From assembly GCA_963816185.1 (NCBI GenBank), contig CAWFJJ010000024.1, positions 64,001-128,000 of the forward strand: DNA of 64,000 nt. Direction: 5' to 3'. How positions within the stretch are numbered: position 1 is the stretch's first letter; every line of letters starts with the position of its first letter. The translations under genes were made by a program, and so were the position numbers. Shown piece by piece: positions 6,103 to 61,963 of this stretch. Under the pieces are notes generated by a model, which was given only the letters and a program-made list of their open reading frames with translations, searched no databases and was not told the origin of the DNA. The DNA is from Thermoanaerobaculia bacterium. GTDB taxonomy: Bacteria; Acidobacteriota; Thermoanaerobaculia; UBA5066.

Positions 6103-8375
6103 AGGGAGCCGTCGCGGCGACGATCACGGGACCCGCCGAGATCGTTCCGTGCGGCGCGCGCGAGCGGCCGCACGACGCTTCTCGAGCACGAGGTCTACGC
6201 GCTGCTCGGCGCGGCGGGCTTCGACGTGCCGCGACACGTCTTCTGGAACGGCGCGCCGGAGCTGGTGCCGACGGAGGTTGAAGATTTCTTGGAAGGGTTG
6301 AGAGGGGACGACGTCGTCCTCAAGATCGTCTCGCCGGATCTCGCCCATAAGTCCGACGTCGGCGGATTCTCATTTTCAAAGAAATCTCCTGCGTCGGTCA
6401 TCGCTGCGGCGAGGACGACGTGGGAAGACGTCTCCCGCCGAGCGCCCGCAGCCCAGCGCCTCGGGATCCTCGTCGTCGAGAAGCTCGTTCCCGCCTCCGG
6501 GAGGTCCCGGCAGCCGAGGCGCTCGTCTCGTTCAAGCAGGACGCGGCCTTCGGCCCCGTCCTCCTCTTCGGCCTCGGCGGCGTCCTGACCGAGTGGTACG
6601 GCGCGAATGGCGCCTGGTGCGACGACGGCGATCCTGCAGCCCGGGAGAGGTGAAGCAGGGCCTCGAGGCCGCGAGTCGAAAAGAGGCCGGCGCTGAAGAT
6701 CTTCTTTGAAAGGAACAGGGCGCAAGCGCAGGCGCCGCTCGTGCTCGACGAGGTGGCGGCCAAGCTCGAATCACTTTCTAAGAATCTCTCTCCCTATTCT
6801 CCCGAGAATTCTCTTGGGTTACCGACTCTCGAAGAGCTCGAGGTCAACCCGGTCCTTCTGACGGCGGACGGGCGCTGGGTCGTGGCCGACGGGAAGGCTT
6901 CGTTCTCGGACCGCAGGGCCGTTCCCGTTCGGAGGCCTCTCGAGAAGATCGAGAAGCTTCTCGCGCCGCGAAGCGCCGTGGTCTTCGGCGCGTCCGCCCG
7001 CGAATCGAATCCAGGCCGGATCATCCTCAACAATCTGAAAGCCTCCGAGACCGTCGTATACGGCCATTTGCATGCGGTTCACCCGCGGGCGGACACGATC
7101 GATGGCGTGCCCTGCGTGCGCTCCGCCTCCGACCTGCCGTCGCCCGTGGACCTCGCGGTCGTGGCGATCCCCGCCGCCGGCGCGCGGGACGCCATCCGGG
7201 ATCTCTGCGCGGGCGATCTCGCGCGCGCGATCATCCTCATTCCGGGAGGGTTCTCGGAGACGGGAAACCGCGGGCTCGAGGACGACATCCGTGCGGCCCT
7301 CGCGTCCTCGCGAGCTCTTCCCTCGGGAGGCCCCGTTCTCGTGGGCGGCAACTGCCTGGGCGTCGTCTCCAAGCACGCCTACAACACGTTCTTCCTTCCG
7401 CAGTACAAGCTGCCGTTCCACGACGCGCCGGGCGACCGCCTCGTCGCGGTGAGTCAAAGCGGCGCGTACCTCGTGTCGCTCACGAGCAACCTGGACGGCA
7501 TCATCTTTCCGCGCGCGTCGATCTCTTACGGCAATCAGATCGACCTGACCGCGGCGGATTTTCTCGAGTACTTCGAGAGGGATCCGTCCGTGCGCGTCCT
7601 CGCGTTCTACGTCGAGGGCTTCGCGCCCCTGGATGGCGCGCGTTTCGCAGCGATCGCGCGGCGCGTCGTGGCGTCGGGCCGGCACGTCCTCGTCTACAAG
7701 GCCGGCCGAACGGCGCTCGGCGCGATGGCCGCGCGGAGCCATACGGCGGCTCTCGCCGGCGACTGGGAGACAGCGCGGGCGCTCCTCGAAGGCGCGGGCG
7801 CGATCGTCGCGGTCACCCTCGACATGTTCGAGGACTACGTGAAGATCTTCACGATGCTCGCGGATCGCCTGCCGTCGGGGCGGCGGCTCGCGGTCCTCTC
7901 GAACGCGGGCTTCGAGTGCGGGGCGGTCCTGGACCGGCTCTACGCCCTGACGCCAGCCGTGCTCGCCCCTGCGACGAGAGCAGGTCTTCGGGCCTGCCTC
8001 CCGGCGATCGCCCACGCCGACAATCCCGTCGATGCCACGCCGATGGCGGGTACCGCCGACTTCGTCGCCGCGGCGAAAGCGCTCCTCGCGGATCCTGGAG
8101 TGGACGCGCTCCTCGTCTCGCCGATCCCGGTCACTCCGGCGCTCGACGACCTCGCGCCCGACCTTTCGGGCGCGCACGCGGAGAACATCTTCTCGCCGGG
8201 CTCGCTCGCGCAGGAGCTCCTGCGTCTTTTTCGCGAGACCGCAAAGCCGCTCGTCGTGAACGTCGACTCCGGGCGCCTGTACGACGATTTCGTCGGCGTT
8301 CTTCAGCGCGGCGGAATCCCCGTCTACCGGAAGATCGACCGGGCTTCCCGGGCCCTCTCCGCGCTCTGCGCCTGA
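6099..8375 (+). CDS. ADP-forming acetate/acyl-CoA ligase, ATP-grasp domain first, then CoA-binding and ligase domains; 5' part frameshifted
   Basis: ATP-grasp motifs spread over three frames (LLEHEVYALL, VVLKIVSPDLAHKSDVGG, QDAAFGPVLLFGLGG, LEVNPV); then GGNCLG, SQSGA, phospho-His motif SHTAALAG and NPVDAT. Frameshifts near 6160, 6500 and 6640. Confidence 0.8.
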
Positions 8376-8384
8376 AGGCGCTCT

Positions 8385-8612
8385 TCAGGAGTTATTCGGG
8401 TTGTCGGTCGTGCGCAGGTAGTAGTAAAGGCGTTTCGCCGGATCCTGCGGGAAGGCGTTCACCCTGAGGACGCGATAGGTCGCCTCGCGCTCGCCCTCGA
8501 AGACGAATCGCGTGTCGACATGGGCGGCCCCTTCGGGGAGGAGGAGGTTGCCCCAGCGCTCCGCCGTCTTCCCGCAGCGGCTCTTCGGGTCGAACGAAGC
8601 GACCTCCGTCAA
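8385..8612 (-). CDS. Small hypothetical protein (75 aa)
   Basis: TTG start overlaps the pyrG stop (TTGA); fills the gap to the convergent ligase gene. Confidence 0.45.
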
Positions 8613-10300
8613 GCCGACTGGCCGTTCGGAGTAGGAAGGTTCGCGGGCGCGACGACGGCGGGCACGAGCTCGGCGCTCTTCTTGTCGACGCCCTCCTGCC
8701 GCGCGTGCTTGTGGGCGCGGGCGGCACGGATGAAGTCCTTGAAGAGCGGGTGCGGCGCGGTGGGCTTGCTCTTGAACTCCGGGTGGAATTGGCAGCCGAG
8801 GAACCACGGGTGGTCGGACAGCTCGATCATCTCCACGAACTTCCGGTCGGGCGACATGCCGCAGAACGTCATCCCGGCGTCGCGCAGGACCGGCAGATAC
8901 TCCTGGTTCACCTCGTAGCGGTGGCGGTGGCGCTCCCAGATCTGCGCCTCGCCGTAGGCGCGCCGCGCGAGGGTGCCCTCCGCGAGGTCGCACGGGTACT
9001 TGCCGAGCCGCATCGTCCCGCCGAGGGCCTCGACGCCGAGGAGGTCGCGCAGCATGAAGATGACCTTGTGCGGCGGGTTCGGCTCGAACTCCGTCGAGTT
9101 CGCGTCTTTGAGCCCGCAGACGTTCCGCGCGAACTCGATGACGGCGCACTGCAGGCCGAGGCAGATTCCGAAGAACGGGACCCTCGTCTCGCGCGCGAGG
9201 CGGATCGCCTTCAGCTTGCCTTCGATGCCGCGGCGTCCGAAACCGGGTCCCACGAGGATCGCGTCCGCGCGGGCGAGCGTCTCGGGGAAGCCGGCCGTCT
9301 CCAGCTCCTCGGAGTCCACGAACGAGATCCTGACCTTCACGTTGTTCGCGATGCCTCCGTGATGGAGCGCCTCGTTCAGGGATTTGTAGCTGTCGCCGAG
9401 CTGCACGTACTTGCCGACGAAGGCGATCGTGACCTCTTCCTGGGGATTCTTGACGCGGTTGACGATCGAGTCCCACTTCGCGAGATCGCGGTCGTAGTGA
9501 GGAAGGGAGAGGTAGTCGAGGAGGATCTCGTCGAGGCCCTCGCGTGCGAACGCGAGCGGCACTTCGTAGATCGTCGGGACGTCACGTGCCGTGATGACCG
9601 CCCGCTCCTCCACGTTGCAGAAGAGCGCCATCTTCTTCTTCATCTCCTCGGGAATCGAGCGGTCGGCACGGCAGAGGAGGATGTCCGGCTGGATTCCGAT
9701 CGAGAGAAGCTCCTTGACGGAGTGCTGCGTGGGCTTCGTCTTCAGCTCGTCGGACGCCGCGATGTGAGGCACGAGGGTCAGGTGCACGTTGATCGCGTTG
9801 CCGCGGCCCACGTCCTGCCGGAACTGGCGGATCGCTTCGAGAAACGGGAGCGACTCGATGTCGCCGACGGTGCCGCCGATCTCCACGAGGACGACGTCGT
9901 TGTCGCCGGCCACGCGGCGCATGCAGTCCTTGATCTCGTCCGTGATGTGCGGGATGACCTGAACGGTCTTCCCGAGGAAGTCTCCGCGGCGCTCCTTTTC
10001 GATGACAGACAGATAGATTTTTCCGGTCGTTATGCTGTTCGCCTTGCCCGTGATGGCGGAGGTGAAGCGCTCGTAATGCCCGAGGTCGAGATCGGTCTCG
10101 GCCCCGTCGTCGGTCACGAAGACCTCGCCGTGCTGAAACGGCGACATCGTGCCGGGGTCCACGTTCAGGTACGGGTCGAACTTCATGAGGGTGACGCGGA
10201 ACCCCCGCGCTTCCAACAGCGCGCCCATGGACGCCGCGGCGATGCCTTTGCCGAGGCCGGAGACCACGCCGCCGGTGATGAAAATGTATTTGGTTCCCAC
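8609..10300 (-). CDS. pyrG: CTP synthase
   Basis: [53 protein letters not shown]; GTG start with GGAGG. Confidence 0.97.
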
Positions 10301-10301
10301 G

Positions 10302-11276
10302 CTACACCTCCCGTACGGCCAAGAAGTTGCTGGTTCGGTTCGTGTCAGGCTGTTTGAGTTTCTTCTCATATGCGGCGGCCCCTGTTGCGGCCGCCGATAG
10401 AAGGAATTTCTTTCCCGGCTGTCCGACGTCAAGGGCGCTCTTTGCGCGCCGCGCAGCGGTCTTTGACCCTTGACTTCGGGCAGCCGGGGAATATCCGATT
10501 CTCTTCTTGCCTTCCTCTTTCTCTCTCTTTCTAAGAATCTCTTCCACTCTTCGAGCGTCCTCGATCGTGTCGACGCCGATGGAGTCGCTCGCGGCATCCA
10601 GCACGGCCATCGCCATCCCCGCCGCGAGCGCGCGGAGCTGCTCGAGGCTCTCGGCGCGCTCGAGCGGATGGGGCGGCAGGCTCGTCCAGCGCCGAAGCGC
10701 GTCCTTGCGGTAGCCGTAGAGGCCGAGGTGCTTGAGCGTCGGGAGGGAAGGCTCGGGTCTCCGGCGGTAGGGAAGCGCCGCACGCGAAAAGTAGAGGGCT
10801 CGCCCGTCGTCGCCGCGCACGACCTTGACGTTGTTCGGATTCGCGATCTCGGCCGGATCGTCGATGGCGAGAGCGACCGTCGCGAGCGGAAACTCGGGAT
10901 GCTCGAGCAGGAATCCCGCCACGCGGTCGAGGTTCTCGGGATCCATGAGCGGCTCGTCGCCTTGCACGTTCAGGACGACGTCCACGTCGAGGTCCCTCAC
11001 GGCCGCGAAGACCCGATCCGTTCCGGACGGAAGCGCCGGGTCCGTCAGGACCGCCCGTCCCCCCGCCGTTTCGACCGTGCGGGCGATCCGCGCGTCGTCG
11101 GTCGCCACGAGCACGAGCGAGACGCGCTTCGCCTGAAGGGCCCGCTCGAGAACCCGTACGACCATGGGGGTTCCGGCGATCGGATGGAGAGGTTTCCCCG
11201 GGAAGCGCTCCGCCCGATAGCGGGAGGGGATGACGGCGACGACGTGAAGCGGGGAGGGGGTCGCCAGCCGGGGCAC
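10302..11276 (-). CDS. kdsB: 3-deoxy-manno-octulosonate cytidylyltransferase with an ~80-aa C-terminal extension
   Basis: [52 protein letters not shown]. Start uncertain (GTG 11276 or ATG 11291). Confidence 0.92.
10368..10490. repeat. Structured palindromic element, copy 1
   Basis: Hairpin cggcggcc/ggccgccg plus a long stem closing gTCAAGGG...CCCTTGAc; 82/107 ungapped identity (manual count) to 58965-59071. Confidence 0.85.
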
Positions 11277-11386
11277 GTTCGATCTTAACATCGCCTCGCG
11301 TGGGCGCGTCAACGTCGTCACCGGCCCGCGCTCGCGGGTCGATGACGACTTAAACAGGATGGAAGAAAGGGATTCGGGGGAGCCCG

Positions 11387-13121: not shown

Positions 13122-13144
13122 CTCGGCGGTGCATCTTACCGCCC

Positions 13145-13636: not shown

Positions 13637-13640
13637 GGAA

Positions 13641-14390
13641 TCACTCCGAGAGGATCTTCGTGCCTTCCGGCGGGACGAGCGCGAAGTCCGAGTCAGGGCG
13701 CTTCGGCCCGGACATCTTCTGCGTGAACGTAAACGTCGTGCGGTTGCCCCCGGCATCCACGAGAATCAGCCTCTTCACCTCGCCCGAGGCTGCCGCGACG
13801 AGCGTGACGGACTTCGGATCCCCGCCGGCGCGAGGGGTCAGCGTGAGCTCGGTCAGGCCGGCGTCCCGTGCGGCGGCGCGCGCCGCATAGCGCGAGAGGA
13901 GCGAGTCGGTCGACTCCAGAAACACGATCGGCAGGCGCGCGATCTCCGCGGGGCTCAGCGTGCGGACGACGAGCTGCCGGTCCGCCGCGACGAACTGGCG
14001 GCCGGCCCTGCCGTCGAACGTGAACACTTTCCCTTCGGGTCCGTCGTAGTCGAAACGCACGCGGTCCGGTGACTGGAGGATCAGTCGCCCGGTCTCCGGC
14101 GCGGTTTCCGCGAAACCTGCCGGCGCGTACGTCTGCACGAACGTGCAGCTCACGGAGGGGGAGGACGAATAAGCTGTTCGGATGCTCGTGAGAAGCGCTC
14201 GCGCGTCGAGCGACGCGACAGCCGGCGGCGCTGGCGTCGCGGCCGGCTTCGCCGGCCGTGCCTCGAAGGGAAAGAAGAATAGGAGGAAAAAAACGAAGAC
14301 TGCGGCGCGCTGCGCGCGCCGTGCTTCGAAAGGAAGAAGGACCGGCGATTCGGCTTGGCGCCGGCAGCGCCTGAGGGCGGGTGCGTTCAC
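13641..14390 (-). CDS. Outer-membrane lipoprotein carrier, LolA-like
   Basis: Signal peptide; FVQTY..ETGRLILQSPDRVRFDY..FDG; DAGGNRTTFTF; FALVPPEG. Start uncertain. Confidence 0.75.
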   Translation of the reverse strand: MNAPALRRCRRQAESPVLLPFEARRAQRAAVFVFFLLFFFPFEARPAKPAATPAPPAVASLDARALLTSIRTAYSSSPSVSCTFVQTYAPAGFAETAPETGRLILQSPDRVRFDYDGPEGKVFTFDGRAGRQFVAADRQLVVRTLSPAEIARLPIVFLESTDSLLSRYAARAAARDAGLTELTLTPRAGGDPKSVTLVAAASGEVKRLILVDAGGNRTTFTFTQKMSGPKRPDSDFALVPPEGTKILSE

Positions 14391-14427
14391 TTTCTAAGAA
14401 TCTTCTCTTTCTTTCTCTCGTCTCTTC

Positions 14428-21242: not shown

Positions 21243-22337
21243 TCACCTCTTTCTTTCGCCTGCGACGGCGGGCTTCGCGGGTTTCGGCTCGGGCGCGGCC
21301 GGCCCGGCAGCCGGTGCCGGGGCACCGAGGACGTCGCCCGTGGGGAGCCCGAGATTCGCCCGGATCTTTCGCTCGACTTCGGCCGCCACATCCGGGTTCT
21401 CGCGGAAAAACTGCTTCGTGTTCTCCCGGCCCTGGCCGATCCGCAGGTCGCCGTAGCTGAACCACGCGCCGGACTTCTCGAGGATCTTCATCTCGACGCC
21501 GATGTCGACCAGCTCGCCGGTCTTCGAGATCCCTTCGCCGTACCCGATGTCGAACTCGGCGATGCGGAACGGGGGCGCAACCTTGTTCTTGACGACCTTG
21601 ACTTTCGTGCGGCTGCCGACGACGACCTCGCCGTCCTTGATCGCGTTGATGCGCCGGATGTCGATGCGCACGGACGAATAGAACTTCAGGGCGCGGCCGC
21701 CGGTCGTCGTCTCGGGATTCCCGAACATGACGCCGATCTTCTCGCGGATCTGGTTGATGAAGATGAGCGTGGTCTTCGACTTCGAGACGACGGCCGTGAG
21801 TTTGCGGAGCGCCTGCGACATGAGGCGGGCCTGCAGGCCCATCGACGCGTCGCCCATCTCGCCCTCGAGCTCGGCTTTCGGAACGAGCGCGGCGACGGAA
21901 TCGATGACGACGACGTCGATCGCGGCCGAGCGGACGAGCGCCTCGGCGATCTCGAGGGCCTGCTCGCCGGAGTCGGGTTGCGACACCATGAGGTTGTCGA
22001 CGTCGACGCCGAGCTTCCGGGCGTAATCGGGGTCGAGCGCGTGCTCGGCGTCGATGAACGCCGCGAGGCCGCCGTGCTTCTGCGCTTCCGCGATGATGTG
22101 GAGGGTCAGGGTGGTCTTGCCCGAGGACTCGGGCCCGAAGACTTCGATGACGCGGCCCCGGGGGATGCCCCCGATCCCGAGCGCGGCGTCCACGCCAATC
22201 GAGCCGCTGGAGATGGATTGGATGACCTCGTGCGGCTTGTCGCCGAGGCGGACGAGCGCGCCCTTCCCGAACTGCTTGTCGATCTGCTGGACGGCCTGCT
22301 CGAGCGCCTTGAGCTTTTCCTTGTTCACTTCGACCAT
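21243..22337 (-). CDS. recA: Recombinase A
   Basis: [57 protein letters not shown]; RBS AAGGAG. Confidence 0.98.
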
Positions 22338-22365: not shown

Positions 22366-22491
22366 GGTATCGGGGGAGGAAGAGATTTCTGCGAATACGG
22401 CGCACGTCGCACCGGCGCTGTTCACCCTTCTAAGAAAATCCGGAGATTCGGCGAATCGGCCTACGATGGCGTCGCCGCGCGGAAGGAACGA

Positions 22492-26773: not shown

Positions 26774-27931
26774 ATGTCGAATGCCGGCCTCCGCGCGCTC
26801 ATCCTCGCCGGAGGCAGCGGCACGCGGCTTTGGCCGCGTTCCACGAACGAACGGCCGAAGCCCTTTCTCGCCCTGACGGGCGGCGAGTCGCTCCTTCGAG
26901 AGACGTTCCGGCGCGCGACCGCGCTCGCCGGGGCCGGGAACGTCTTCGTCTCGGGACGCGCGGCGCACGCGCCGCTGCTTGCCGCCGAGCTGCCCGAGGT
27001 GCACCGGTCGCGCTTCGTTCTCGAGCCGGTGCGGCGCAACACCGCGCCCGCGATCGCCCTCTCGGCGCTTGCCGCTTCGGAGGACGCTCCGGACACCGTC
27101 CTCGCCGTCCTGCCGTCCGATCAGGCCGTGCGCGACGAAGCGGCGTTTCTCGCCGCCCTCCGCTCGGCGGCGGAGGCGGCCCGGACGCAAGACGCGTTCG
27201 TCACGCTCGGGATCCCGCCCACGCGGCCCGAGACCGGATTCGGGTACATGGAAGTCGAAGAACAAGAAGAGATTTCTGCTGAAGACGAAGAAGAGAAAGA
27301 GGAGATTTCTCCGAATGGGAAGAGGGGAAACGAGAAGGGGACCGGGGAATCGAAGATTTCTGAGAATGGAAACAGGGAAGGGAGAGCCGCGGCCTTGCGC
27401 GTGGTGCGCTTCGTGGAAAAGCCGACGCTTGCGCGAGCCCAGGAGTTTCTAGCCTCCGGCCGCTTCTTCTGGAACGCCGGCATCTTCGTGTTCCGGACCT
27501 CATACCTTTTCGAAGAAATGGAGAGAGCCTGTCCCGACATCCTGAACATCGCACGCCGCGCGTATGCGGCTCGAAAAGAGGGGGAATTCACAGAAATCTT
27601 CTCTTCGTCCCCTTCCGTGTCCTTCGACGTCGCGGTCATGGAGAAGGCGAGGCGGGTAATCACCGTCCCGTGCGCGTGCGGGTGGAGCGACCTGGGCTCG
27701 TGGGAAGCCGTTTTCGAATTCCGGGGCGGCGCTCCCGGCACAAACGTGCTCGAGGGACCCGCGGCTGCGGTCGAGGGATCCGGCAACCTCGTTCTGGCCG
27801 AAGGACGGCCGGTGCGCGTCGTCGGCCTTTCCGACGTCGCGGTCGTGGACTCCAAGGACGGCGTTCTCGTCATGCGCCGCGGCGCGTCCGACGCGCTCCG
27901 GAGGAGCGTGGAGGAGGGCCTGTCGCGATGA
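26774..27931 (+). CDS. manC: Mannose-1-phosphate guanylyltransferase with an internal ~40-aa E/K-rich insertion
   Basis: ILAGGSGTRLWP.S, EPVRRNTAPA, PSDQ, TLGIPPTRPETGFGY, FVEKP, WNAGIF, WSDLGSW. Confidence 0.9.
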   Translation: MSNAGLRALILAGGSGTRLWPRSTNERPKPFLALTGGESLLRETFRRATALAGAGNVFVSGRAAHAPLLAAELPEVHRSRFVLEPVRRNTAPAIALSALAASEDAPDTVLAVLPSDQAVRDEAAFLAALRSAAEAARTQDAFVTLGIPPTRPETGFGYMEVEEQEEISAEDEEEKEEISPNGKRGNEKGTGESKISENGNREGRAAALRVVRFVEKPTLARAQEFLASGRFFWNAGIFVFRTSYLFEEMERACPDILNIARRAYAARKEGEFTEIFSSSPSVSFDVAVMEKARRVITVPCACGWSDLGSWEAVFEFRGGAPGTNVLEGPAAAVEGSGNLVLAEGRPVRVVGLSDVAVVDSKDGVLVMRRGASDALRRSVEEGLSR

Positions 27932-44467: not shown

Positions 44468-45576
44468 AAAGACTCCGGACGGGGGATTCTAGCGTCCCGC
44501 GCCTTCTCGAGGGCGGCGCGGAAGCGGGCCTGGAAGACGTCCCGCGAGAAACGGGCGGCGTTGCGAGGCAGAGCCGCGGAGTCGAGCGTGAGGCCGAGGA
44601 GGCGGTCGAGCGCCGCGAGCAGGCCCGCGGCTCCCGGTTTGGCGTACAGGACGCCCGTCTCGCCGTCCCGCACCGTCTCGGTCGCCCCCCCGAGTCCGAG
44701 CGCGACGACCGGCGTGCCGCAGGCCTGCGCCTCCAGCGGCACGATGCCGAAATCCTCCTCGCCCGGCATCAGTACGGCCTCCGAGGCGCGGTACAGGTCG
44801 CGCAACATCTCGTCATTGGGAGTGTCGACAAATCGGATCGTCTCACCGGCCCGCTTCGCGAGGCGGGAGCGCTCAGGCCCGAACCCCGCGATCGTGAGGG
44901 GCAACCTACCGGCGTTCGCGGCGTCGATGGCGTCGTCGAGCCTCTTGTACGGGGCGAGCGCCGACACGACGAGGAAGCCGCGCCGGGGCGTTCCGGGAGG
45001 CGGCGGCGTGTAGAACTCCGTGTCGGCGGGTGGAAATACGACGGCCGCCTCGCGCCCCCACAGCCTGGCGATACGGCCTTTCACGTTCTCCGAATTCGCG
45101 AGAAAGGCGTCCACGCGGGGCATGGTCGAGCGGTCCCAGGCGCGAAGCGGGGTGCGCACGAGACGCGCCGCCGCCCGGGTCGCCGCGGAACGGTTCCGAA
45201 AGTAGTCGTCGAACTGGTCGTGCAGGTATCGCACGGGCGTGTGGCAGTAGCAGAGGTGGAAGGCTCCCGGTGCTTTCTTCGCGTTCTTGGCGACGCAGTG
45301 GGAGGACGAGATCACGAGGTCGAACCCGGAAAAGTCCCATGTCTCCGCGGCGACGAAGAAGAGAGGGAGGAGCTTCCGATAGTCGGCGCGCGGCGAGACG
45401 AGCTTCTGCAGGAACGTCGTCCGGATTTCCGCGGCCTCGATTTCGGGAGGCTGCGAGCCTGGGAAATGGAAGAGCGTGAAGACGGGCGCGCCCGGAAACA
45501 TCCGGACCAGCTCCAGCAGCACCTTCTCGCCGCCGCGCGTGCCCGTCAGCCAGTCGTGGACGAGGGCGACCCTCAC
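44464..45576 (-). CDS. Glycosyltransferase family 4
   Basis: VALVHDWLTG.RGGEKV, CYCHTP.RY, EEDFGIVPLEAQACGTPV. Confidence 0.9.
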   Translation of the reverse strand: MRVALVHDWLTGTRGGEKVLLELVRMFPGAPVFTLFHFPGSQPPEIEAAEIRTTFLQKLVSPRADYRKLLPLFFVAAETWDFSGFDLVISSSHCVAKNAKKAPGAFHLCYCHTPVRYLHDQFDDYFRNRSAATRAAARLVRTPLRAWDRSTMPRVDAFLANSENVKGRIARLWGREAAVVFPPADTEFYTPPPPGTPRRGFLVVSALAPYKRLDDAIDAANAGRLPLTIAGFGPERSRLAKRAGETIRFVDTPNDEMLRDLYRASEAVLMPGEEDFGIVPLEAQACGTPVVALGLGGATETVRDGETGVLYAKPGAAGLLAALDRLLGLTLDSAALPRNAARFSRDVFQARFRAALEKARDARIPRPESL

Positions 45577-46832
45577 TAGGAGGAATCCTTTGCTCCCTCT
45601 CGTGTCGAGTCGTGGCCCGGCTCATGAGAGGATGACATTTCTTCGAATGGGTGTGCGTTCGACACGCCCTCGAGTTGCACCGAGGCGGCACCCGCCGCCG
45701 TGACTCCACTCACCCCTCTAAGAAGATCTTCATACACCCTCGCGGTTCGCTCCGCCGCGCGCCGCCAAGTGAATTGCGCTGCCCGCTCCCGTCCCCTCTT
45801 TCTAAGAGATTCTCTCTTCTCTTCATCCCCGAGCAGCGCGTTCAGGGCTGTCGCGAGGGACGCGACGTCGTGCGGATCGAAGAACACCGCCGCGTCGCCC
45901 GCAGCCTCGCGGAGGGCGGGGAGGTCCGAGCACGCGACGGGCGTGCCTGCCGCCTGCGCCTCGAGGACCGGCAGCCCGAAGCCTTCCGCAAACGAGGGCA
46001 GAACGAGCGCTCGCGCGCCCGCGAGGAGCGGCGGCACGTCGGCGTCCGGCACGAAGCCGATGACCTTTGCGCCCTCGGGCAGCGTCCGCCCGGGTCCGAC
46101 ACCCGCGAGGACGAGAGAGAGCGATGGATTCGCCGCGCGCACGCGTGGCCACGCGAGAAGCAACCCGTCGAGGTTCTTGTGCGGTTTGTCGTTGCCGAGA
46201 AAGAGAAGATAAGGAAGATAAGAACGAAGATAAGGAGAAGATTCTTTGAAAGGAAGAACGGAAGACTGCACCTCGGCCACACGACGCGCGCCGGCGCTGC
46301 TTTCTTCCCCTTCTAAGAAGAATCTCTCCTCCACTCCATTTGGAATTACTTCGATCTTGAGGTTACGAGAGGGTCCGAAAGCAAGAATTTCCTTCTTCGT
46401 GGCTTCCGACACCGCGATCACTCGAGCGGAGAGGCGCAATGCGCGGCCGATCATCCAGCGCGCGTACACGCGCTTCGCTCTCGCCGCGTGCTCGGGCCGG
46501 GAAAGGTGCATGAGGTCGTGGATCGTGACGACCGTCGCGCGCGGCGGAAAGAGTGGAACGACGTAGTGCGGAGCATGGAAGAGGTCCGGCCGTGCTACAG
46601 AGATCGCCTGCCTGACCGCCACGAGCTCGCCGATCGAGTAATGTGCGGCCGCGCACGTCGTCGTCGTCACGGCTGCGGGCACGAGCGCCTCGTCGCCCGG
46701 AAGAACGAGCGCTTGGAGTTCGAAACGGTCCAGTCCCGCGAGGCCGCCGAGAAGGCCCCGGATATACGTGCCGATCCCGAAGTCGCGCGCCTTGCGCGCG
46801 TCCACGAGGATGAGCTTCCTTCGCTCCGTCAC
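45576..46832 (-). CDS. Glycosyltransferase family 4 with an internal insertion and C-terminal extension
   Basis: GTGA overlap; GIGTY, TIHDL, KPHKNL, PSFAEGFGLPVLEAQAAGTPV. Confidence 0.88.
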   Translation of the reverse strand: MTERRKLILVDARKARDFGIGTYIRGLLGGLAGLDRFELQALVLPGDEALVPAAVTTTTCAAAHYSIGELVAVRQAISVARPDLFHAPHYVVPLFPPRATVVTIHDLMHLSRPEHAARAKRVYARWMIGRALRLSARVIAVSEATKKEILAFGPSRNLKIEVIPNGVEERFFLEGEESSAGARRVAEVQSSVLPFKESSPYLRSYLPYLLFLGNDKPHKNLDGLLLAWPRVRAANPSLSLVLAGVGPGRTLPEGAKVIGFVPDADVPPLLAGARALVLPSFAEGFGLPVLEAQAAGTPVACSDLPALREAAGDAAVFFDPHDVASLATALNALLGDEEKRESLRKRGRERAAQFTWRRAAERTARVYEDLLRGVSGVTAAGAASVQLEGVSNAHPFEEMSSSHEPGHDSTREGAKDSS

Positions 46833-50820: not shown

Positions 50821-50824
50821 GAAG

Positions 50825-52858: not shown

Positions 52859-52877
52859 TCCGGGGCTGCCTCGACGC

Positions 52878-58226: not shown

Positions 58227-58235
58227 CGCGGGGCT

Positions 58236-61200
58236 TCACCGGAAGTCGTGGCTGGGAAGATCGGGCAGCGAGGGAAGCGGCCAGAACCGCTCGGCCCTCA
58301 CCGAGACGTTTCCGCCTTCCTTCTGGAGCTTTCCTTCCACGACGAGGCCTCCCGAGCCCACGATGACCGATCGATGCTTCCGGAAGAGGTCGGGGCGCAC
58401 GATGGCTTGCACGATGCCGCTTTCGTCCTCGAGCGACAGGAAGACGAAGCCCTTCGCCGTGCCCGGCCTCTGCCTCACGATGACGGCGCCCGCGGTTTTC
58501 ACCCGTTCGCCCTCGGGCACGTTCCGGAGCTCCCCGGCCGACAGGATCGACCGCGCCGCGAGCGCCGGACGCAGATGCTCGAGGAGGTGCGGGCCAGCCG
58601 TCATGTCCGTCGCGCGATAGTCGGCGGTCGTCTCCTGAATGGCTGACATCTCGGGAAGAGGAGATTTCTGCGAAGAGGAAGAAAGAGGGAGAGATTCATA
58701 GAGGGTGCCGAGGGGATGGGAGATCTCCGCGACTTGCCAGAGGGCCGTGCGGCGGGAGACGCCGAGGGACAAGAGGGAACCGGAGTAGGCGATCAAGGTC
58801 ATCTCGTCGGGACGGAGCCGGCAGCGGCGCTGAAAGTCCGCCACATCCCGGAACGGTCCTCCGCGCGTTCTTTCGGCTTCGATGGCTTCTCCCGTCGTCT
58901 GCTTCAGCCCCTTGATGAAACGCATGCCGAGACGCACGGAGAGAGGACCATGATTTGGTTGCTTATATGCGTCGGCCGCTGATGCGGCCGACGACAGGGG
59001 CGAATCTGTCCCCGGCGGGCCGCTTTCAAGGGCGCGCTTCGCGCGCCGTGCAGCGGTCGAAGACCCTTGACAGCGCTCCGCCGTCGGACGCCTGGCCGCC
59101 GGGATACCCCGCTCCTTCGCGCGTGAACTCGCTTCGCTCAGACAGCACGCGCGTGCGTCGCGAGGTACCCCGGCGTCCCGCGCCCTATTCATATTCGAAG
59201 AAAAATCTTCTTCTTTCTCTTCCTCTCTCTCTACCCGGCAATCCCATCCCGAAAAGTTCACGTCGATCGGCAGGACCGCAGTGCCCTTGCGCTGGATGTC
59301 CTTCAGGATCGTCGCGGGGTGGTAGAAGCCCATCGGCCACGCGTTCAGGAGGCACGCCGTGAACGCCGCCGGGTGGTGCGCCTTCAGCCACGCGCTCGCG
59401 TACGCGATGAGCGCGAAGCTGGCCGCGTGCGACTCGGGGAAGCCGTAGAGCGCGAACGACGTGATGGACTTGACGATCTGGTCCTGCGCGGGCCCCGTGA
59501 TGCCTTTTTTCGCCATGCCCGAGCGCAGCCGCTCTTCAATCGCGCCCATGCGCTCCTCGGAGCGCTTGAAGCCCATCGCGCGGCGCAGCTCTTCCGCCTC
59601 GCCGCCCGTGAAGCCCGCGGCCACCATCGCGATCCTGAGGAGCTGCTCCTGGAAGAGCGGTACGCCGAGCGTGCGCTTCAGGATCGGCTCGAGGCACGGG
59701 TGCGGATACTCGACCGGCGCCTTGCCCTGCCGCCGGTCGAAGAACGGGTGCACCATCCCGCCCACGATCGGCCCCGGCCGGATGATCGCGACCTGCACGA
59801 CGATGTCGTAGAAGACCTTCGGCGCGTGGCGCGGGCAGCGAAGCCATCTGCGCGCGGCTCTCGACCTGGAAGAGGCCGATCGTGTCGGCTGCGCGGAGCA
59901 GCTCGTACACCTTCGGGTCGTCCGCGGGCAGGTGCGCGAGGTCCACGTCCACGCCCTCGTGCGCCTTGATCAGGGGCAGCATCTTCTCGATCGCGCCCAG
60001 CATCCCGAGGCCGAGGAGATCCACCTTCACGATGCCGAGGTCCGCGCAGTCGTCCTTGTCCCACTGGATGACGACGCGCCCTTCCATCGCCGCGGGCTCG
60101 AGCGGCACGACCTCGGACAGCTTTCCCATCGCCACGACCATCCCGCCCGAGTGCTGTCCGAGGTGGCGCGGCAGGCTCTGGACGCGCATGAAAAGCTTCC
60201 CGAAGTGCGCGACGCGCGGGTGTGCGGGGTCGAAGCCGGCGGCCGCCATCTCCTTCGCGAGATCGGCCGCGCCGTCGCGGTACTCGCCGAAGCTCCACGC
60301 CCCGAGGTGCTTCGCGATCGTGTCCACCTGCTCCGGCGAGAAGCCCAGGGCCTTCGCCATCTCGCGCGCGGCCGAACGGTCGCGGTACGTGATGACGTTC
60401 GCCGTCATCGCCGCGCCGTCGGCGCCGTACGTTTTGTAGACGTGCTGGATCACCTTCTCGCGCGGGTCGCCCGAGGGCAGGTCGAGGTCGATGTCGGGCC
60501 ACTCCCCGCGCTCCTCCGAGAGGAAGCGCTCGAAGAGAAGCTCCATCTTCACGGGATCCACCGCCGTGATCGAGAGCGCGTAGCACACGGCGCTGTTCGC
60601 GGCCGAGCCGCGCCCCTGCACGAGGATGTGCTCCTTCTTGCAGAAGTTCACGATGTCCCAGACGATGAGGAAGTAGCCCGCGAGGTCCAGCTTCGCGATG
60701 AGGTCGAGCTCCCGCTGGATCTGCGCCTGCGCCTTTCCCGTGAGCGGCCGGAAGCGCGAGCGCGCGCCTTCCCACGTGACGTGCCTGAGGAACGACGACG
60801 GCGTCTCGCCCGGTGGCAGCGGGTACGCGGGGAAGCGGTAGCCGAGGTCCGCGAGCGTGAAGGAAAGGCGCCCGCGCGAGCTCGGCGCTCCTTTCGAGGA
60901 CGCCCGGCAGATCCGCGAAGAGGGCCTCCATGTCGGCCGCGGACTTCAGGTGGCGCTCGCGCCCCGCGTGCAGCTTCGTGCCGGCCGCGTCGAGGTGCGT
61001 GTGGTGGCGGATGCACGTGAGAGCGTCGAAGAGGTCCTTGTCCTTCCGCGCCGCGTAGCGCGCGCCGTTCGTCGCGAGGACCGGCAGGCGCGCGGCGAGA
61101 GCGAGATCGAGGAGCGCGCGATTCAGGTGCTCCTCCGCGCGCAGGAAGTGGCGCTGCAGCTCCACGTGAAGGCGCCCCGGGAAGAGCGCCGTGAGGCGGT

Positions 61201-61963
61201 CCAGCTCGCGGCGCGCCGCGTCGAAACCGCCCGTATCGCGCGACGTCAGCGCGCGCGTCACGACGCTCTCCTCGCCGCCCGTCAGGACGTGCAGCCCTTC
61301 CGCGTGCGCGGCGACCTCCTCCCACGTCGCGGCCGCCTGCCCCTTCGGCTTCCCTGCGGCGGCGGCGGTGAGAAGCGAGCAGAGGTTCCGGTAGCCCTTC
61401 TGGTTCTCGGCGAGCAGCGTCAGACGGGGATAAGAAATTCCTGCTGGGAGGGGAGGGGGAACGATTCCGAGAGGACCGGGAAGATTTTCTTCGAATGAGT
61501 GTGTGGGCGATTCGCCGCTTCTGCCCTCTTCCTCTTTACCTTTCAAAGAAATCTTGTTGCTCCATCCCCCGACGAGAGCCGGATGCGGAGCAAGAACGAC
61601 CTCCGCCCCGACGAGCGCTTTCACCCCCGCCGCCTTCGCTGCCTTCCAGAAGCGCGGGGCGCCGGAGAGGCCGTTCGTGTCCACGAGCGCCATCGCGGGA
61701 AGGCCGAGCGCCGCCGCACGCGCGACGAGGTCTTCCGGCAGAGACGACCCGTTCAGGAACGAGAACGCCGAGGCGACGCGCAGCTCGGCATACGGCCTCG
61801 CGCGCTTTGCGGGAGCGGGCGGCCGCGCGAACGCCCGCACGCGCGCTTTCTCCTTGCGTGCGCCGGGAGACGTGTACGCGCCGGGCTGCCCGGGTTTGAC
61901 GATCGGCCCGAGCATGTCGCGTCCCGGCGGCCCGCCGTGCTTCCCGCTGCCGCGCCCGTCCAT
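58236..61963 (-). CDS. dnaE2: Error-prone DNA polymerase DnaE2, split by two frameshifts (near 60870 and 59835), with two in-frame insertions
   Basis: YAEL..S.FSFL.G, QGRGSAANS.VCY, FERF, PDIDLD, PRHLGQHSGG, QVESRAQM, YGFPESH, PMGFY, RQRPGTAKG, terminal SHDFR. Confidence 0.88.
58965..59083. repeat. Structured palindromic element, copy 2 (inside dnaE2)
   Basis: Hairpin cgtcggccgc/gcggccgacg and TCAAGGG...CCCTTGA stem with the same spacing as copy 1. Confidence 0.85.

What the first reader, a model, noticed from the sequence alone, without database searches (positions are those of the whole stretch)
6282..61554. Dispersed AT-rich motif AGAT(T)TTCnnnGAA written into coding sequence, often as inverted pairs
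Seen: in a roughly 70% GC background there are sharp purine/pyrimidine-skewed AT-rich patches, each centred on the same word. Plus-strand copies: 6282, 6697, 11934, 22383, 22444, 27270, 27303, 27354, 45635, 46239, 58662, 61482. Minus-strand copies: 6375, 6776, 10529, 14392, 22428, 27509, 27587, 45716, 45800, 46311, 59194, 61542. The 9-mer TTCTAAGAA occurs exactly at 6776, 10529, 14392, 22428 and 46311. Many copies form a plus-then-minus pair 45-95 bp apart (6282/6375, 6697/6776, 22383/22428, 45635/45716, 46239/46311, 61482/61542). Most lie inside unrelated genes and use AT-rich codons atypical of those genes. The 6282/6375 pair brackets a conserved ATP-grasp motif, so these are not simply transposon ends. 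Inference: selected binding sites for a dimeric DNA-binding protein (palindromic TTC-N3-GAA core), functionally analogous to matS, SlmA or uptake sequences. I do not recognise this motif from any described bacterial system.
Basis: partly seen in the sequence, partly recalled or inferred. Interest (0 to 1): 0.85.

Follow-up and report, generated by a model that had tools for sequence, protein, structure and literature searches.

The report
Paired DNA marks written into genes
A soil acidobacterium and its close relatives carry about 650 copies of a 28-letter DNA word, mostly as facing pairs and often spelled straight into essential genes by changing codons, which points to an unknown system that reads this word.

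Summary
The unit is an asymmetric ~28-nt "arm" (C/T-rich flank, TTCACC, core TTCnAAGAA, ATCTYC). There are about 650 arms at 20 bits or more in the 5.09-Mb genome, against 88 in a reversed-sequence control. In coding sequence there are 362, against 16 after synonymous-codon shuffling. About 75% sit in polar, convergent pairs 40-250 bp apart: 223 in that configuration against 10 in the opposite one. The DNA between paired arms is mostly unrelated from pair to pair.

In a Ser/Thr kinase, aspartyl-tRNA synthetase and the window's ATP-grasp gene, the arms are not insertions. They overlay native residues and were made in place by substitutions, including GC-to-AT synonymous changes.

The motif is confined to one genus and its sister genus. 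About two thirds of the window's arms are kept at orthologous places in five related species, with gains and losses.

Not supported: a classic MITE or Rickettsia-type element, REPIN/RAYT, a base-pairing-selected hairpin, ribosome-binding sites, or an assembly artefact.

Best reading (0.42): recognition sites for a lineage-specific DNA-reading factor, kept by selection or drive. The function is untested.

The parts
6279..6306 (-). Arm (core 6286, reads GATTTCTTGGAAGGG on + strand), left arm of pair 1 inside the ATP-grasp domain of an acyl-CoA synthetase-like gene
   Evidence: 26.6 bits. Codons EDFLEG. Present in 8 of 12 genus genomes and 0 of 18 outside the genus, with no length change (part 2b).
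6363..6390 (+). Arm (core 6375, TTCAAAGAA), right arm of pair 1
   Evidence: 22.9 bits. Codons FSFSKKSP replace VA(F/I)APxEP of relatives. At 18 bits or more in 8 of 12 genus genomes, 0 of 18 outside (part 2b).
6695..6722 (-). Arm (core 6702, TTCTTTGAA), left arm of pair 2, same gene
   Evidence: 25.6 bits. Scores 25, 31, 32 and 14 bits at the orthologous place in G003, G007, G011 and G008 (part 3).
6764..6791 (+). Arm (core 6776, TTCTAAGAA), right arm of pair 2
   Evidence: 28.6 bits. Codons LSKNLS. Orthologous scores 13, 26, 19 and 6 (part 3).
10356..10500 (.). Copy of a second, ~135-nt dispersed repeat ('B') lying next to arm 10529
   Evidence: 48 loci in the genome. 34 have an arm within 150 nt, against 4.9% of random places (part 6).
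10517..10544 (+). Arm (core 10529, TTCTAAGAA), single, beside the B repeat, downstream of the cytidylyltransferase domain
   Evidence: 31.0 bits. PF02348 ends upstream of it. 28 bits in G008; no anchors in the other four genomes (part 3).
14380..14407 (+). Arm (core 14392, TTCTAAGAA), intergenic between the purH and lolA homologues
   Evidence: 26.7 bits. Gene families. Present in G007 (30 bits); the place is shorter and arm-free in G011 and G008 (part 3).
22416..22443 (+). Arm (core 22428, TTCTAAGAA) in the region upstream of recA
Evidence: 27.5 bits. recA is 21243-22337 on the minus strand. Scores 25-38 bits in 5 of 5 syntenic genomes (part 3).
27300..27378 (-). Two same-sense arms (cores 27307 and 27358; a third weak copy at 27270) inside a low-complexity insertion in a ManC-like nucleotidyl transferase gene
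   Evidence: 21.4 and 24.1 bits. Sequence; PF00483. Orthologous stretch is 17-116 nt shorter and arm-free in G003 (part 3).
45632..45731 (.). Pair 45639 (weak) / 45716 at the 3' end of a GT4 glycosyltransferase gene, at the junction with the next gene
   Evidence: 12.1 and 25.5 bits. Among 20 orthologous stretches the same anchors span 379-629 nt, showing empty sites, single arms and full pairs (part 4). A metagenome contig skips 45576-45711.
45788..45815 (+). Arm (core 45800, TTCTAAGAG) inside the GT4 gene
   Evidence: 25.0 bits. On the gene's strand it lies in GDEEKRESLRKRGRE, and arm-like sequence is at this column in all 20 orthologues.
46235..46326 (.). Pair 46242/46311 in the inter-domain linker of the GT4 gene
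   Evidence: 23.4 and 33.3 bits. Right arm at 14 bits or more in 18 of 19 orthologous stretches, left arm in 12 of 19. Centre is 0 to ~150 nt and not alignable between clades (part 4). RNA fold z = -4.67.
58659..58686 (-). Arm (core 58666) inside dnaE (DNA polymerase III alpha), after the HhH domain
   Evidence: 20.6 bits. Only 3-16 bits at the same place in 5 genomes, with no length change (part 3). Domains.
58962..59071 (.). B repeat copy translated in frame inside dnaE
   Evidence: Orthologous alignments break at about 58947-59220.
59182..59209 (+). Arm (core 59194, TTCGAAGAA) at the edge of the dnaE insertion
   Evidence: 24.7 bits. Read on the gene's strand as EEDFSSNMN. Absent in G008; no anchors in four genomes (part 3).
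61480..61557 (.). Pair 61487/61542 inside the PHP domain region of dnaE
   Evidence: 23.8 and 30.4 bits. PHP match spans 212 residues for a 164-position profile. Orthologous stretch is 37-115 nt longer. Arms present in 4 of 5 genomes (part 3).

Best explanation
The thing is a lineage-specific, asymmetric ~28-bp DNA word, here called an arm. It has a C/T-rich inner flank ending in TTCACC, the core TTCnAAGAA, and an outer flank ATCTYC followed by about 30 nt of C/T-rich sequence. It is present about 650 times per genome.

Its normal form is a polar pair. One arm reads GATTTCTTAGAAGGTGA and, 40-250 bp on, the other reads TCACCTTCTAAGAAATC. The TCACC sides of both arms (read as GGTGA in the first) face inward, and the pair brackets any kind of sequence.

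I think the arms are most likely recognition sites read on double-stranded DNA by a sequence-specific factor found only in this lineage, and that two arms are read together.

Shown:
- Sites are created in place by point substitutions, inside essential genes as well as between genes.
- They are then held against the genome's GC pressure, including at synonymous positions.
- The bracketed DNA changes length between related species and is the preferred landing place of a second repeat family (B).

Inferred:
- The two arms cooperate.
- The maintaining force is selection for the binding function, or a conversion-type drive linked to it.

What the binding achieves (chromosome structuring, self-marking, or recombination or repair control) is not known.
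For: Abundance and information content.
- 651 arms at 20 bits or more against 88 in the reversed-sequence control; 483 against 33 at 24 bits or more.
- TTCTAAGAA occurs 337 times against 5.6 expected under an order-3 Markov model.

Codon-aware null (20 synonymous shuffles within 4343 predicted genes).
- 362 arms in coding sequence against a mean of 16.1 (maximum 24).
- TTCTAAGAA|TTCTTAGAA occurs 159 times against 3.5 (part 1).

Polarity and pairing.
- Adjacent arms within 400 bp fall as 223 in the convergent arrangement, 10 in the opposite one and 35 + 37 direct.
- 492 of 653 arms have a partner.

Both strands and all frames are used.
- Where TAA or TAG would be in frame, arms still occur, with the free core letter changed. 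The crude ORFs cannot hold in-frame stops by construction, so the finding is that arms are still there, as TTCGAAGAA (48), TTCAAAGAA (11) or TTCTTCGAA (24).
- This argues against a protein-level or translation-level cause.

Written in place.
- A kinase aligns to PknA with no gap at the left arm and a single-residue gap at the right.
- AspRS aligns to Thermus AspRS with 0 and 1-residue gaps at the arms.
- In AspRS, other genera read TGG AAC TCC AAC GCC AAG AAG CTC CTC. The arm-bearing genera read TGG AAT TCC AAT TCG AAG AAA ATC TTC.
- Both AspRS arms score 12 bits or more in 12 of 12 g1 and 5 of 5 g8 genomes, and <12 in 13 of 13 genomes of six other genera (part 2a).
- The ATP-grasp pair of the window is present as a pair in 8 of 12 genus genomes, absent in 3, half present in 1, and absent in 18 of 18 outside. 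There is no length change at either arm; a few genus genomes carry 1-4 extra codons just after the left arm (part 2b).

Constraint at silent sites (AspRS).
- Arm codons have GC3 0.65 against 0.88 elsewhere.
- Third-position identity is 0.77 against 0.64. In the other genera the same columns give 0.69 against 0.67 (part 2a).

Conservation with turnover.
- Of 71 look-ups of window arms in five syntenic genomes, 48 score 18 bits or more, 6 are weak and 17 are absent (part 3).

Recognition of each arm rather than arm-arm complementarity.
- Partner arms are no more alike than permuted arms: 0.389 against 0.385 for inner flanks and 0.314 against 0.312 for outer flanks, n = 207.

DNA-level special status of the bracketed segment.
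- 34 of 48 B repeats lie within 150 nt of an arm, against 4.9% of random places.
- 43 of 46 of those arms have the polarity of a pair enclosing B (part 6).
Against: - No binding protein is identified, and no gene was found that co-occurs with the motif.
- Spacing of 40-250 bp without helical phasing is awkward for rigid cooperative binding.
- Density is uneven, 0.41 to 2.1 arms per 10 kb among contigs over 100 kb, with variance/mean about 3 in 20-kb bins. No functional pattern in host genes was seen.
- Some arms come with real length changes: the dnaE insertion, the ManC insertion, the GT4 linker, and empty sites at the GT4 3' end. A mobile-DNA component is therefore not excluded.
- In five of six window pairs the minimum-energy fold pairs the two arms, and one has z = -4.67, so a single-strand or RNA role is not excluded.
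- The purine-rich strand holds AGAAGGTGA, one mismatch from a Shine-Dalgarno sequence.
- The gene calls are my own crude caller. The conservation figures rest on two genes and one 64-kb syntenic block.
Confidence: 0.42

Rival explanations
1. A self-propagating motif kept by molecular drive rather than by a cellular function. The best-known model is DNA uptake sequences: competent cells take up motif-bearing DNA preferentially, so recombination spreads any mutation that improves a match, including in coding sequence.
For: - Hundreds of copies in both orientations, written into genes in several frames by substitution at weakly conserved residues. The abstract of Findlay & Redfield 2009 (PMC2817400) describes this pattern for Haemophilus and Neisseria.
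- The motif is specific to one lineage.
- Host genes show no functional pattern.
- ComEC and DprA homologues are present, though most bacteria have them.
Against: - 75% of arms are in tight polar pairs, 223 against 10. Uptake bias does not predict this.
- Density is uneven and five times higher per base in intergenic DNA.
- The motif is longer and rarer (1 per 7-8 kb) than known uptake sequences; the table headings seen list 765-1892 per genome of about 2 Mb.
- Competence has not been shown for this group, as far as I found (no paper holds both 'Acidobacteri' and 'uptake sequence' in a relevant sense).
Confidence: 0.15
2. An RNA-level element. Because of the pair's symmetry, any transcript crossing a pair in either direction carries first a purine-rich, Shine-Dalgarno-like arm (AGAAGGUGA) and then a pyrimidine-rich arm that copies the 16S rRNA tail (UCACCUUCU). 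The two can pair, or can engage ribosomes or rRNA-processing factors.
For: - AGAAGGTGA is one mismatch from AGGAGGTGA. The arm TCACC----TTCTAAGAAATCTC matches the genome's 16S 3' end plus spacer, TCACCTCCTTTCTAAGGGATCTC, at 17 of 19 positions with one 4-nt gap.
- That site is the only non-arm match to TCACC.{0,8}TTCTAAG..ATCTC in the genome: 9 matches, 8 of them arms (part 5).
- In 5 of 6 window pairs the minimum-energy RNA fold pairs the arms, with z down to -4.67.
- Unpaired arms show a slight excess of the purine strand in the sense direction, 85 against 56.
Against: - There is no covariation between partner arms.
- Four of six fold z-scores are weaker than -2.
- Arms are not placed as ribosome-binding sites.
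- The ATCTC part of the 16S resemblance holds only in the G000/G011 subclade, while arms are genus-wide. TTTCTAAG at the 16S-spacer junction is shared by g1 and g8 but counts as one phylogenetic event.
- A pairing function would not need one fixed sequence at 650 places.
- B repeats target the pairs at the DNA level.
Confidence: 0.12
3. Remnants of an old miniature transposable element, like MITEs or the in-frame Rickettsia palindromic elements. The arms are terminal inverted repeats still recognised by a transposase, and the interiors have decayed.
For: - Strict inverted-repeat polarity and a modal pair size of 74-79 nt.
- Presence/absence with length change at some orthologous sites (part 3).
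- In-frame insertions in dnaE and the ManC-like gene.
- 36 of 100 in-gene centres have non-coding-like codon scores.
- Association with another repeat family.
Against: - Centres are unrelated: 176 of 212 are singletons.
- Arms in the kinase, AspRS and ATP-grasp genes overlay native residues without insertion, and outgroups show the GC-rich ancestral codons.
- No target-site duplication was seen.
- No recurrent protein lies between long-range arm pairs.
- No Y1 transposase was found in 13 genus genomes. Other transposase families were not screened.
Confidence: 0.12
4. Recombination sites for programmed inversion or exchange of the bracketed segment (intragenic invertons or shufflon-like cassettes).
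For: - Inverted sites bracket short segments inside genes.
- Several pairs sit at the same places in 11 kinase paralogues.
- Centres change length between species.
Against: - Orthologous centres that align do so in the same orientation.
- No strand-changing joint was listed among metagenome contigs. Contigs cannot show rare forms, and 12 joints were not shown.
- Inverting the kinase or AspRS segments would destroy essential folds.
Confidence: 0.05

Closest known systems
DNA uptake signal sequences (USS of Pasteurellaceae, DUS of Neisseriaceae)
   Same: A lineage-specific short DNA word in hundreds of copies and both orientations. It is superimposed on coding sequence in several reading frames by substitution, preferentially where the protein tolerates it (abstract of PMC2817400; here).
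   Different: Here three quarters of copies are in polar pairs 40-250 bp apart. The word is longer (~28 nt), about five to ten times rarer, and unevenly spread. No uptake bias or competence is known for the group.
REP doublets / REPINs and BIMEs of Proteobacteria
   Same: Short repeats organised as inverted doublets with a less conserved spacer. Doublets are better kept than singlets (abstract of PMC3116915). Recalled, not read: other mobile elements target them (Tobes & Pareja 2006). Here a second repeat family lands inside the pairs.
   Different: REPINs are extragenic, fold as hairpins and go with a RAYT transposase. Here 55% of arms lie in genes, partner arms show no extra complementarity, and no Y1 transposase was found in 13 genus genomes while 6 of 8 outgroup genomes have one.
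Rickettsia palindromic elements (RPEs) and other MITEs inserted in frame
   Same: Palindromic repeats found inside protein-coding genes and translated as part of the protein. This is recalled from Ogata et al. 2000; only search listings of later Rickettsia genome papers were seen. Here dnaE, the ManC-like gene and the GT4 linker carry such translated inserts.
   Different: RPEs are insertions of a conserved 100-150-nt body. Here the interior is unrelated between copies, and in three genes there is no insertion at all.
Oriented or structural chromosome motifs (Chi, KOPS, matS, SlmA/Noc sites)
   Same: Over-represented words kept by weak selection across the chromosome, including in genes (recalled).
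   Different: Those are 8-16 nt single sites with replication-related orientation or regional restriction. Here the unit is a paired 28-nt word with no net strand bias: 38 forward and 42 reverse copies of the 13-mer. Regional restriction could not be tested.

Membership tests
DNA uptake sequences (USS/DUS) | Hundreds to thousands of copies of one short word, in both orientations, specific to a lineage | tested here: met
   About 650 arms. The 13-mer occurs 38 forward and 42 reverse. It is confined to genus g1 plus sister genus g8 among 301 genomes of the class.
DNA uptake sequences (USS/DUS) | Copies in coding sequence arise by substitution and sit at weakly conserved residues | tested here: met
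   Kinase, AspRS and ATP-grasp alignments.
DNA uptake sequences (USS/DUS) | Single sites suffice, with fairly even spacing along the genome | tested here: not met
   75% of arms are in polar pairs. Variance/mean is about 3 in 20-kb bins, and density differs five-fold between large contigs.
DNA uptake sequences (USS/DUS) | Preferential uptake of motif-bearing DNA by competent cells | not testable with these tools
   Only ComEC and DprA homologues could be shown, and these do not discriminate.
REPIN / REP-RAYT | Inverted doublets of a short repeat with a spacer | tested here: met
   223 convergent pairs against 10 divergent.
REPIN / REP-RAYT | Extragenic location | tested here: not met
   358 of 653 arms lie in predicted coding sequence, and 102 pairs lie wholly within one gene.
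REPIN / REP-RAYT | A RAYT (Y1, IS200-like) transposase gene in the genome | tested here: not met
   PF01797 gives 0 of 13 genus genomes and 6 of 8 outgroup genomes. The unpublished genome G013 is one of those 8.
REPIN / REP-RAYT | The doublet forms a hairpin beyond what the consensus gives | tested here: not met
   Partner and permuted arm identity are equal. Fold z-scores are -4.67 to +0.51, with four of six weaker than -2.
MITE / Rickettsia palindromic element | Copies share a conserved internal sequence | tested here: not met
   176 of 212 centres have no relative among the others.
MITE / Rickettsia palindromic element | Each copy is an insertion relative to the empty site, with a target-site duplication | tested here: not met
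   No insertion at the arms in the kinase, AspRS or ATP-grasp genes. Some other sites do differ in length, but no duplication was seen.
MITE / Rickettsia palindromic element | An autonomous partner with the same ends and a transposase | tested here: inconclusive
   14 long-range arm pairs hold no recurrent protein. Only the Y1 family was screened across genomes.
Intragenic invertons | Both orientations of the bracketed segment occur in a population or among relatives | tested here: inconclusive
   Alignable centres share orientation. No strand-changing joint was listed, but only assembled contigs were available.
matS / SlmA / Noc-type sites | Tens of single palindromic sites confined to, or excluded from, one chromosome region | tested here: not met
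   About 650 asymmetric sites, mostly paired. Regional restriction is not testable on 30 unordered contigs.

The most novel reading that the evidence does not exclude
This lineage has a directed, sequence-installing process. It writes a fixed 28-nt mark on both sides of arbitrary 40-250-bp DNA segments by short-patch conversion or biased repair, rather than by transposition, and it does so even inside dnaE, aspS and kinase genes. If so, the arms are the footprint of a new kind of self-propagating genome mark with its own reader or writer protein. The marked segments would be managed differently, for example as indel-prone landing pads for other repeats.
Probability: 0.2. Interest if true: 0.9.

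Novelty: new variant of a known kind. Interest (0 to 1): 0.78.

Why it matters
If the arms are read by a protein, this is a new genome-wide DNA signal in Acidobacteriota, an abundant and poorly studied soil phylum.

It is strong enough to override codon choice, and some amino acids, in essential genes such as the replicative polymerase, aspartyl-tRNA synthetase and protein kinases. So far only uptake sequences were known to reshape proteomes this way.

The obligate polar pairing is not a feature of any described system I could test it against. It also gives a directly testable handle: paired-arm probes for pull-down, and a clean phylogenetic contrast between two arm-bearing genera and arm-free sister genera for finding the responsible gene.

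For annotators it explains rare-codon patches, low-complexity inserts and length-variable linkers in these genomes.

Tried and rejected
- **Rfam:** no family in the window reaches its gathering score.
- **Chance or composition:** rejected by dinucleotide shuffles, an order-3 Markov model, a reversed-sequence control and synonymous-codon shuffles.
- **Assembly artefact:** rejected. The excess of poly-T words is one artefactual run on contig C10 and is unrelated.
- **Protein motif or rare-codon pausing:** rejected. All frames, both strands and intergenic DNA are used.
- **Ribosome-binding site:** arms show no preferred distance to start codons. The small peak at +1 comes from my caller choosing the GTG inside GGTGA.
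- **Terminator:** arms are least dense between convergent genes, 20 arms in 84 kb.
- **Helical phasing of pair spacing:** none found.
- **Autonomous element:** none found between long-range pairs.
- **REP-RAYT:** no Y1 transposase in the genus.
- **Regulon:** neighbouring and host genes are diverse. Only large paralogous families recur, namely kinases and ABC ATPases.
- **16S-tail mimicry:** kept as unexplained, not adopted.
- **Mirror-repeat / triplex (H-DNA) potential of the CCTTCT...TCTTCC layout:** noticed by eye, not tested.
- **Sequencing runs:** only assembled contigs of soil metagenomes with 32% or fewer of the sampled words were available. They show relatives with skipped or replaced centres but cannot show rare inversions, excision or RNA ends.
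- **First crude gene caller and GC3 flank test:** too weak to be useful, replaced.
- **Literature:** searches for the 9-mers returned only eukaryotic STAT/GAS sites and incidental sequences.

Full report

Yes. In the window, TTCNNNGAA occurs 35 times against 15.5 expected, and 0 of 100 shuffles reach 35. TTCTAAGAA occurs at the five stated places against 0.09 expected.

The window is contig C24:64001-128000 of a 5.09-Mb, 67% GC assembly of 30 contigs. Earlier notes of this scan call the organism a soil acidobacterium; I did not check that label.

Genome-wide, TTCTAAGAA and its complement occur 337 times against 5.6 expected from an order-3 Markov model. They head the list of enriched 9- and 10-mers, apart from one artefactual poly-T run on contig C10.

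- 21 carry an exact TTCNNNGAA.
- 18 score 12 bits or more with a weight matrix built from the 337 copies.
- All six named pairs exist.

**2. Anatomy**

Aligning the 337 copies gives an asymmetric word. It has a C/T-rich inner flank ending in TTCACC, the core TTCTAAGAA, then A(T/A)(T/C)(C/T)(T/C) and about 30 nt of pyrimidine-rich outer flank. I call this an arm.

- A matrix scan finds 729 arms at 18 bits or more (134 in a reversed-sequence control), 651 at 20 or more (88), and 483 at 24 or more (33).
- Within the core only the fourth letter is free. Partner arms agree there in 53% of pairs, against 89-100% at the other eight letters. The core is therefore TTCnAAGAA, not a free TTC-N3-GAA palindrome.
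- Arms are strongly polar with respect to each other. Among adjacent arms within 400 bp, 223 are in the order "GATTTCTTAGAAGGTGA ... TCACCTTCTAAGAAATC", 10 are in the opposite inverted order, and 35 + 37 are direct.
- With a relaxed partner threshold, 492 of 653 arms are paired.
- Core-to-core distances run from 40 to about 250 nt. There is a mode at 74-79 (34 of 212 pairs) and a spike at 93 (11 kinase paralogues). No helical phasing is seen.
- The DNA between the arms is 71% GC with a median of 70 nt (part 7). It is unrelated from pair to pair: 176 of 212 centres are singletons by blastn.
- Partner arms are no more complementary to each other than to arms of other pairs. Inner-flank identity is 0.389 against 0.385, and outer-flank identity is 0.314 against 0.312, for 207 pairs.

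**3. Where the arms lie**

My own codon-usage gene caller gives 4343 genes covering 87% of the genome. It is crude, and start codons are uncertain.

- 358 of 653 arms lie in coding sequence, 277 are intergenic and 18 straddle an edge. That is about five times denser per base between genes.
- Inside genes arms are spread evenly along the length. Between genes they follow the amount of DNA of each intergenic type and are least dense between convergent genes.
- 102 pairs lie wholly within one gene and 71 are wholly intergenic.
- Both strands and all frames are used. In frames where TAA or TAG would be a stop, arms still occur, with the free letter changed to give TTCGAAGAA (48), TTCAAAGAA (11) or TTCTTCGAA (24). 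The ORFs used there cannot contain stops by construction, so the finding is that arms are present at all.

In the window (families) the hosts are:
- the ATP-grasp part of an acyl-CoA-synthetase-like gene (four arms);
- a ManC-like nucleotidyl transferase;
- a GT4 glycosyltransferase (three arms in the gene and two at its 3' junction);
- dnaE (four arms).

Three arms are intergenic or of uncertain status:
- upstream of recA;
- between purH and lolA;
- beside a cytidylyltransferase gene.

**4. The arms are written in place**

This is the main result.

*Kinase.* A Ser/Thr kinase with two pairs aligns to M. tuberculosis PknA, with no gap at the left arm and one 1-residue gap at the right arm. EEFFEGEE lies over SEFSSDPE and HSFEEIPG over HDYGESQ. 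The second pair's left arm lies on the conserved VRRILRRCL segment.

*AspRS.* Aspartyl-tRNA synthetase aligns to the Thermus enzyme with no gap at the left arm and a 1-residue gap at the right. In a codon alignment of 30 genomes of the family:
- The arm-free genera read TGG AAC TCC AAC GCC AAG AAG CTC CTC GAC.
- The arm-bearing ones read TGG AAT TCC AAT TCG AAG AAA ATC TTC GAC. That is a run of synonymous GC-to-AT changes plus A>S and L>I/F.
- Both arms score 12 bits or more in 12 of 12 genomes of genus g1 and 5 of 5 of sister genus g8. They score <12 in 13 of 13 genomes of six other genera (part 2a).
- In g1+g8 the arm codons have GC3 0.65 against 0.88 for the rest of the fragment (0.96 against 0.95 in the other genera).
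- Arm codons are more conserved at third positions, 0.77 against 0.64 (0.69 against 0.67 in the other genera).

*ATP-grasp pair of the window (6286/6375).* This pair is younger.
- Both arms are present in 8 of 12 genus genomes.
- Neither arm is present in G009, G033 and G026, which keep GAC TTT CTC ACC GGC and GTG GGT TTC GCG CCT CGG.
- G004 has only the right arm.
- 18 of 18 genomes outside the genus have none.
- There is no length change at either arm; a few genus genomes carry 1-4 extra codons just after the left arm (part 2b).
- So the two arms of a pair appeared together around an unchanged, conserved segment.

*Codon-aware null.* Shuffling synonymous codons within each gene (20 times) leaves 16.1 arms at 20 bits or more in coding sequence (maximum 24), against 362 observed. 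It leaves 3.5 TTCTAAGAA|TTCTTAGAA against 159 (part 1).

**5. Distribution and turnover**

*Taxonomic range.*
- The 13-mer CCTTCTAAGAAAT occurs 19-110 times (both strands summed) in each of the genus genomes sampled: 12 of 12 and 16 of 16.
- It occurs 5 times in one genome of sister genus g8 (G175).
- It occurs once each in three of the remaining 283 genomes of the class. The backwards control pattern gives four single hits.
- 400 kb of G175, chosen around its five hits and so biased upwards, holds 26 arms with the same consensus, against 1 in the control.
- G013, an unpublished genome, is among the arm-free outgroups.

*Synteny.* The whole window is syntenic in five species of the genus at 73-93% identity.
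- At anchored orthologous places, 48 of 71 arm look-ups score 18 bits or more, 6 score 12-18 and 17 score <12.
- 12 of 55 site-genome combinations had no anchors.
- At the two sites with two same-strand arms, the best score in the interval was counted for both arms (part 3).
- Conversely, 44 of the 66 arms found in those five syntenic stretches are also arms (18 bits or more) in the window (part 3).

*Centres drift and change length.*
- Across 19 genomes, the GT4 linker pair keeps its right arm in 18 and its left arm in 12. The centre ranges from nothing to about 150 nt (part 4).
- At the GT4 3' junction the same anchors span 379-629 nt, showing empty sites, single arms and full pairs (part 4).
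- Soil-metagenome contigs show the same kinds of variants: 45576-45711 skipped, and 46207/46215-46303 replaced by 23 or 33 other letters. No strand-changing joint was listed, though only contigs were available and 12 joints were not shown.

*In-gene centres.* They form a continuum from native domain sequence to Ala/Gly/Pro/Arg-rich translations of non-coding-like DNA.
- The mean codon score of centres is 0.16 against 0.39 for the rest of the gene.
- 36 of 100 centres score at or below 0.

**6. A second repeat lands inside the pairs**

A ~135-nt repeat (B; window 10356-10500 and 58962-59071) has 48 loci in the genome.
- 34 of them have an arm within 150 nt, against 4.9% of random places.
- 43 of the 46 arms concerned have the polarity of a pair enclosing B.
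- The distances vary from 10 to 149 nt (part 6).

So B is not one unit with the arms. It prefers the bracketed DNA. This argues that pairs are special at the DNA level.

**7. What it is not**

- **A classic MITE or RPE:** no shared body, no insertion in three tested genes, no target duplication seen, and no recurrent protein between long-range pairs.
- **A REPIN:** half the arms are in genes, there is no extra arm-arm complementarity, and no Y1 transposase was found in 13 genus genomes while 6 of 8 outgroup genomes have one.
- **A hairpin selected for pairing:** the arms do pair in the minimum-energy RNA fold of 5 of 6 window pairs. The z-scores are -1.98, -0.24, -2.71, -4.67, -1.04 and +0.51, and there is no covariation.
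- **A ribosome-binding site or a terminator**.
- **A regulon:** host and neighbouring genes are diverse.

**8. Most likely mechanism**

*Shown.*
- A high-information asymmetric word.
- Strict polar pairing.
- Creation in place by substitution.
- Constraint at silent sites.
- Restriction to one lineage.
- Conservation with turnover.
- Preference of another repeat for the bracketed DNA.

*Inferred.*
- Each arm is recognised for its own sequence, on duplex DNA, by a factor of this lineage.
- Two arms are read together.
- The sites are kept by selection for that binding or by a conversion-type drive linked to it.

I give this reading 0.42. The rivals are:
- an uptake-sequence-like drive (0.15);
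- an RNA-level Shine-Dalgarno / anti-Shine-Dalgarno mimic (0.12);
- decayed transposon ends (0.12);
- inversion or exchange sites (0.05).

The remainder is for something not thought of.

*The 16S resemblance.* The arm reads TCACC----TTCTAAGAAATCTC and the 16S tail plus spacer reads TCACCTCCTTTCTAAGGGATCTC. That site is the only non-arm match to the gapped pattern in the genome (part 5). It is striking, but:
- its ATCTC part holds only in the G000/G011 subclade;
- TTTCTAAG at the 16S-spacer junction is shared by g1 and g8 as a single phylogenetic event.

I leave it as unexplained.

**9. Comparison and novelty**

The closest behaviour is that of uptake sequences, which are also written into genes at tolerant positions (abstract of PMC2817400). 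The closest layout is that of REP doublets (abstract of PMC3116915). The translated inserts recall Rickettsia palindromic elements (recalled; only listings seen). Each family fails on a defining feature that was tested here (see the membership table).

I found no description of the motif:
- in searches for the words themselves;
- for Acidobacteria with repeat terms;
- for Acidobacteria with "uptake sequence";
- in earlier notes of this scan.

Papers outside the held library, and supplements, were not seen.

I file it as a new variant of the known kind "genome-wide selected or driven DNA words". The open possibility is that the paired, in-place writing reflects a new mechanism.

**10. Limits**

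- Gene calls are my own.
- The conservation statistics rest on two gene fragments and one 64-kb syntenic block.
- Genomes of one genus are not independent.
- ori/ter could not be placed on the unordered contigs.
- No raw reads or RNA ends were available.

Noticed in passing
window 10356-10500 and 58962-59071; 48 loci in G000: A second dispersed repeat family ('B', ~135 nt). It has two GC-rich hairpin-like parts, CATATGCGGCGGC...GCCGCCGATAG and GTCAAGGG...CCCTTGAC. It also has dozens of copies in G007 and G008 and sits preferentially inside arm pairs.
   Followed up: partly
window 58236-61963, minus strand (dnaE): The DNA polymerase III alpha gene reads as two overlapping open frames, 59678-61963 and 58236-59798, implying a frameshift near 59700. 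It carries an in-frame ~90-residue insert made of an arm plus a B repeat between the finger and HhH domains. Relatives lack that stretch (about 58947-59220).
   Followed up: partly
window 6100-6740: The ATP-grasp / acyl-CoA synthetase-like gene is broken into several frames here. The open frame around the query is 161 residues in G000 and 314 in its closest relative G003, against about 840-870 in ten other genus genomes. This is either a shared pseudogene or shared errors.
   Followed up: no
G000 contig C10:1147-2239: A run of 1028 T followed by 65 A, almost certainly an assembly artefact. It caused the apparent genome-wide excess of poly-T words.
   Followed up: yes
G000 C1:445540-445575 (16S rRNA 3' end and spacer): The arm consensus matches the 16S tail plus the first spacer bases at 17 of 19 positions with one 4-nt gap. 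The purine strand of the arm is one mismatch from a Shine-Dalgarno sequence. TTTCTAAG at this junction is found in the two arm-bearing genera only.
   Followed up: partly
window 27260-27390: Three same-sense arm copies 33-51 nt apart form a ~45-residue acidic, low-complexity insert (EEQEEISAEDEEEKEEISPNGKRGNEKGTGESKISENGNRE) in a ManC-like gene. The stretch is 17-116 nt shorter in five relatives.
   Followed up: partly
L160 (G012:C100) 656-812: Three arms in tandem with a 69-nt period after a single opposite arm. They are translated as SPSKKSSE... repeats, so arms can be multiplied by local duplication.
   Followed up: partly
window 22380-22460: An arm lies in the region upstream of recA and scores 25-38 bits at the same place in 5 of 5 syntenic genomes, although the stretch length differs by -14 to +91 nt.
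   Followed up: no
G000 contigs C29, C25, C18, C6, C12: Arm density differs several-fold between contigs. C29 (467 kb) has 0.41 per 10 kb, C24 and C28 have about 2, and C18 (57 kb) has none. This could reflect islands, a replicon difference or binning contamination (3.4% by the tool's figure).
   Followed up: no
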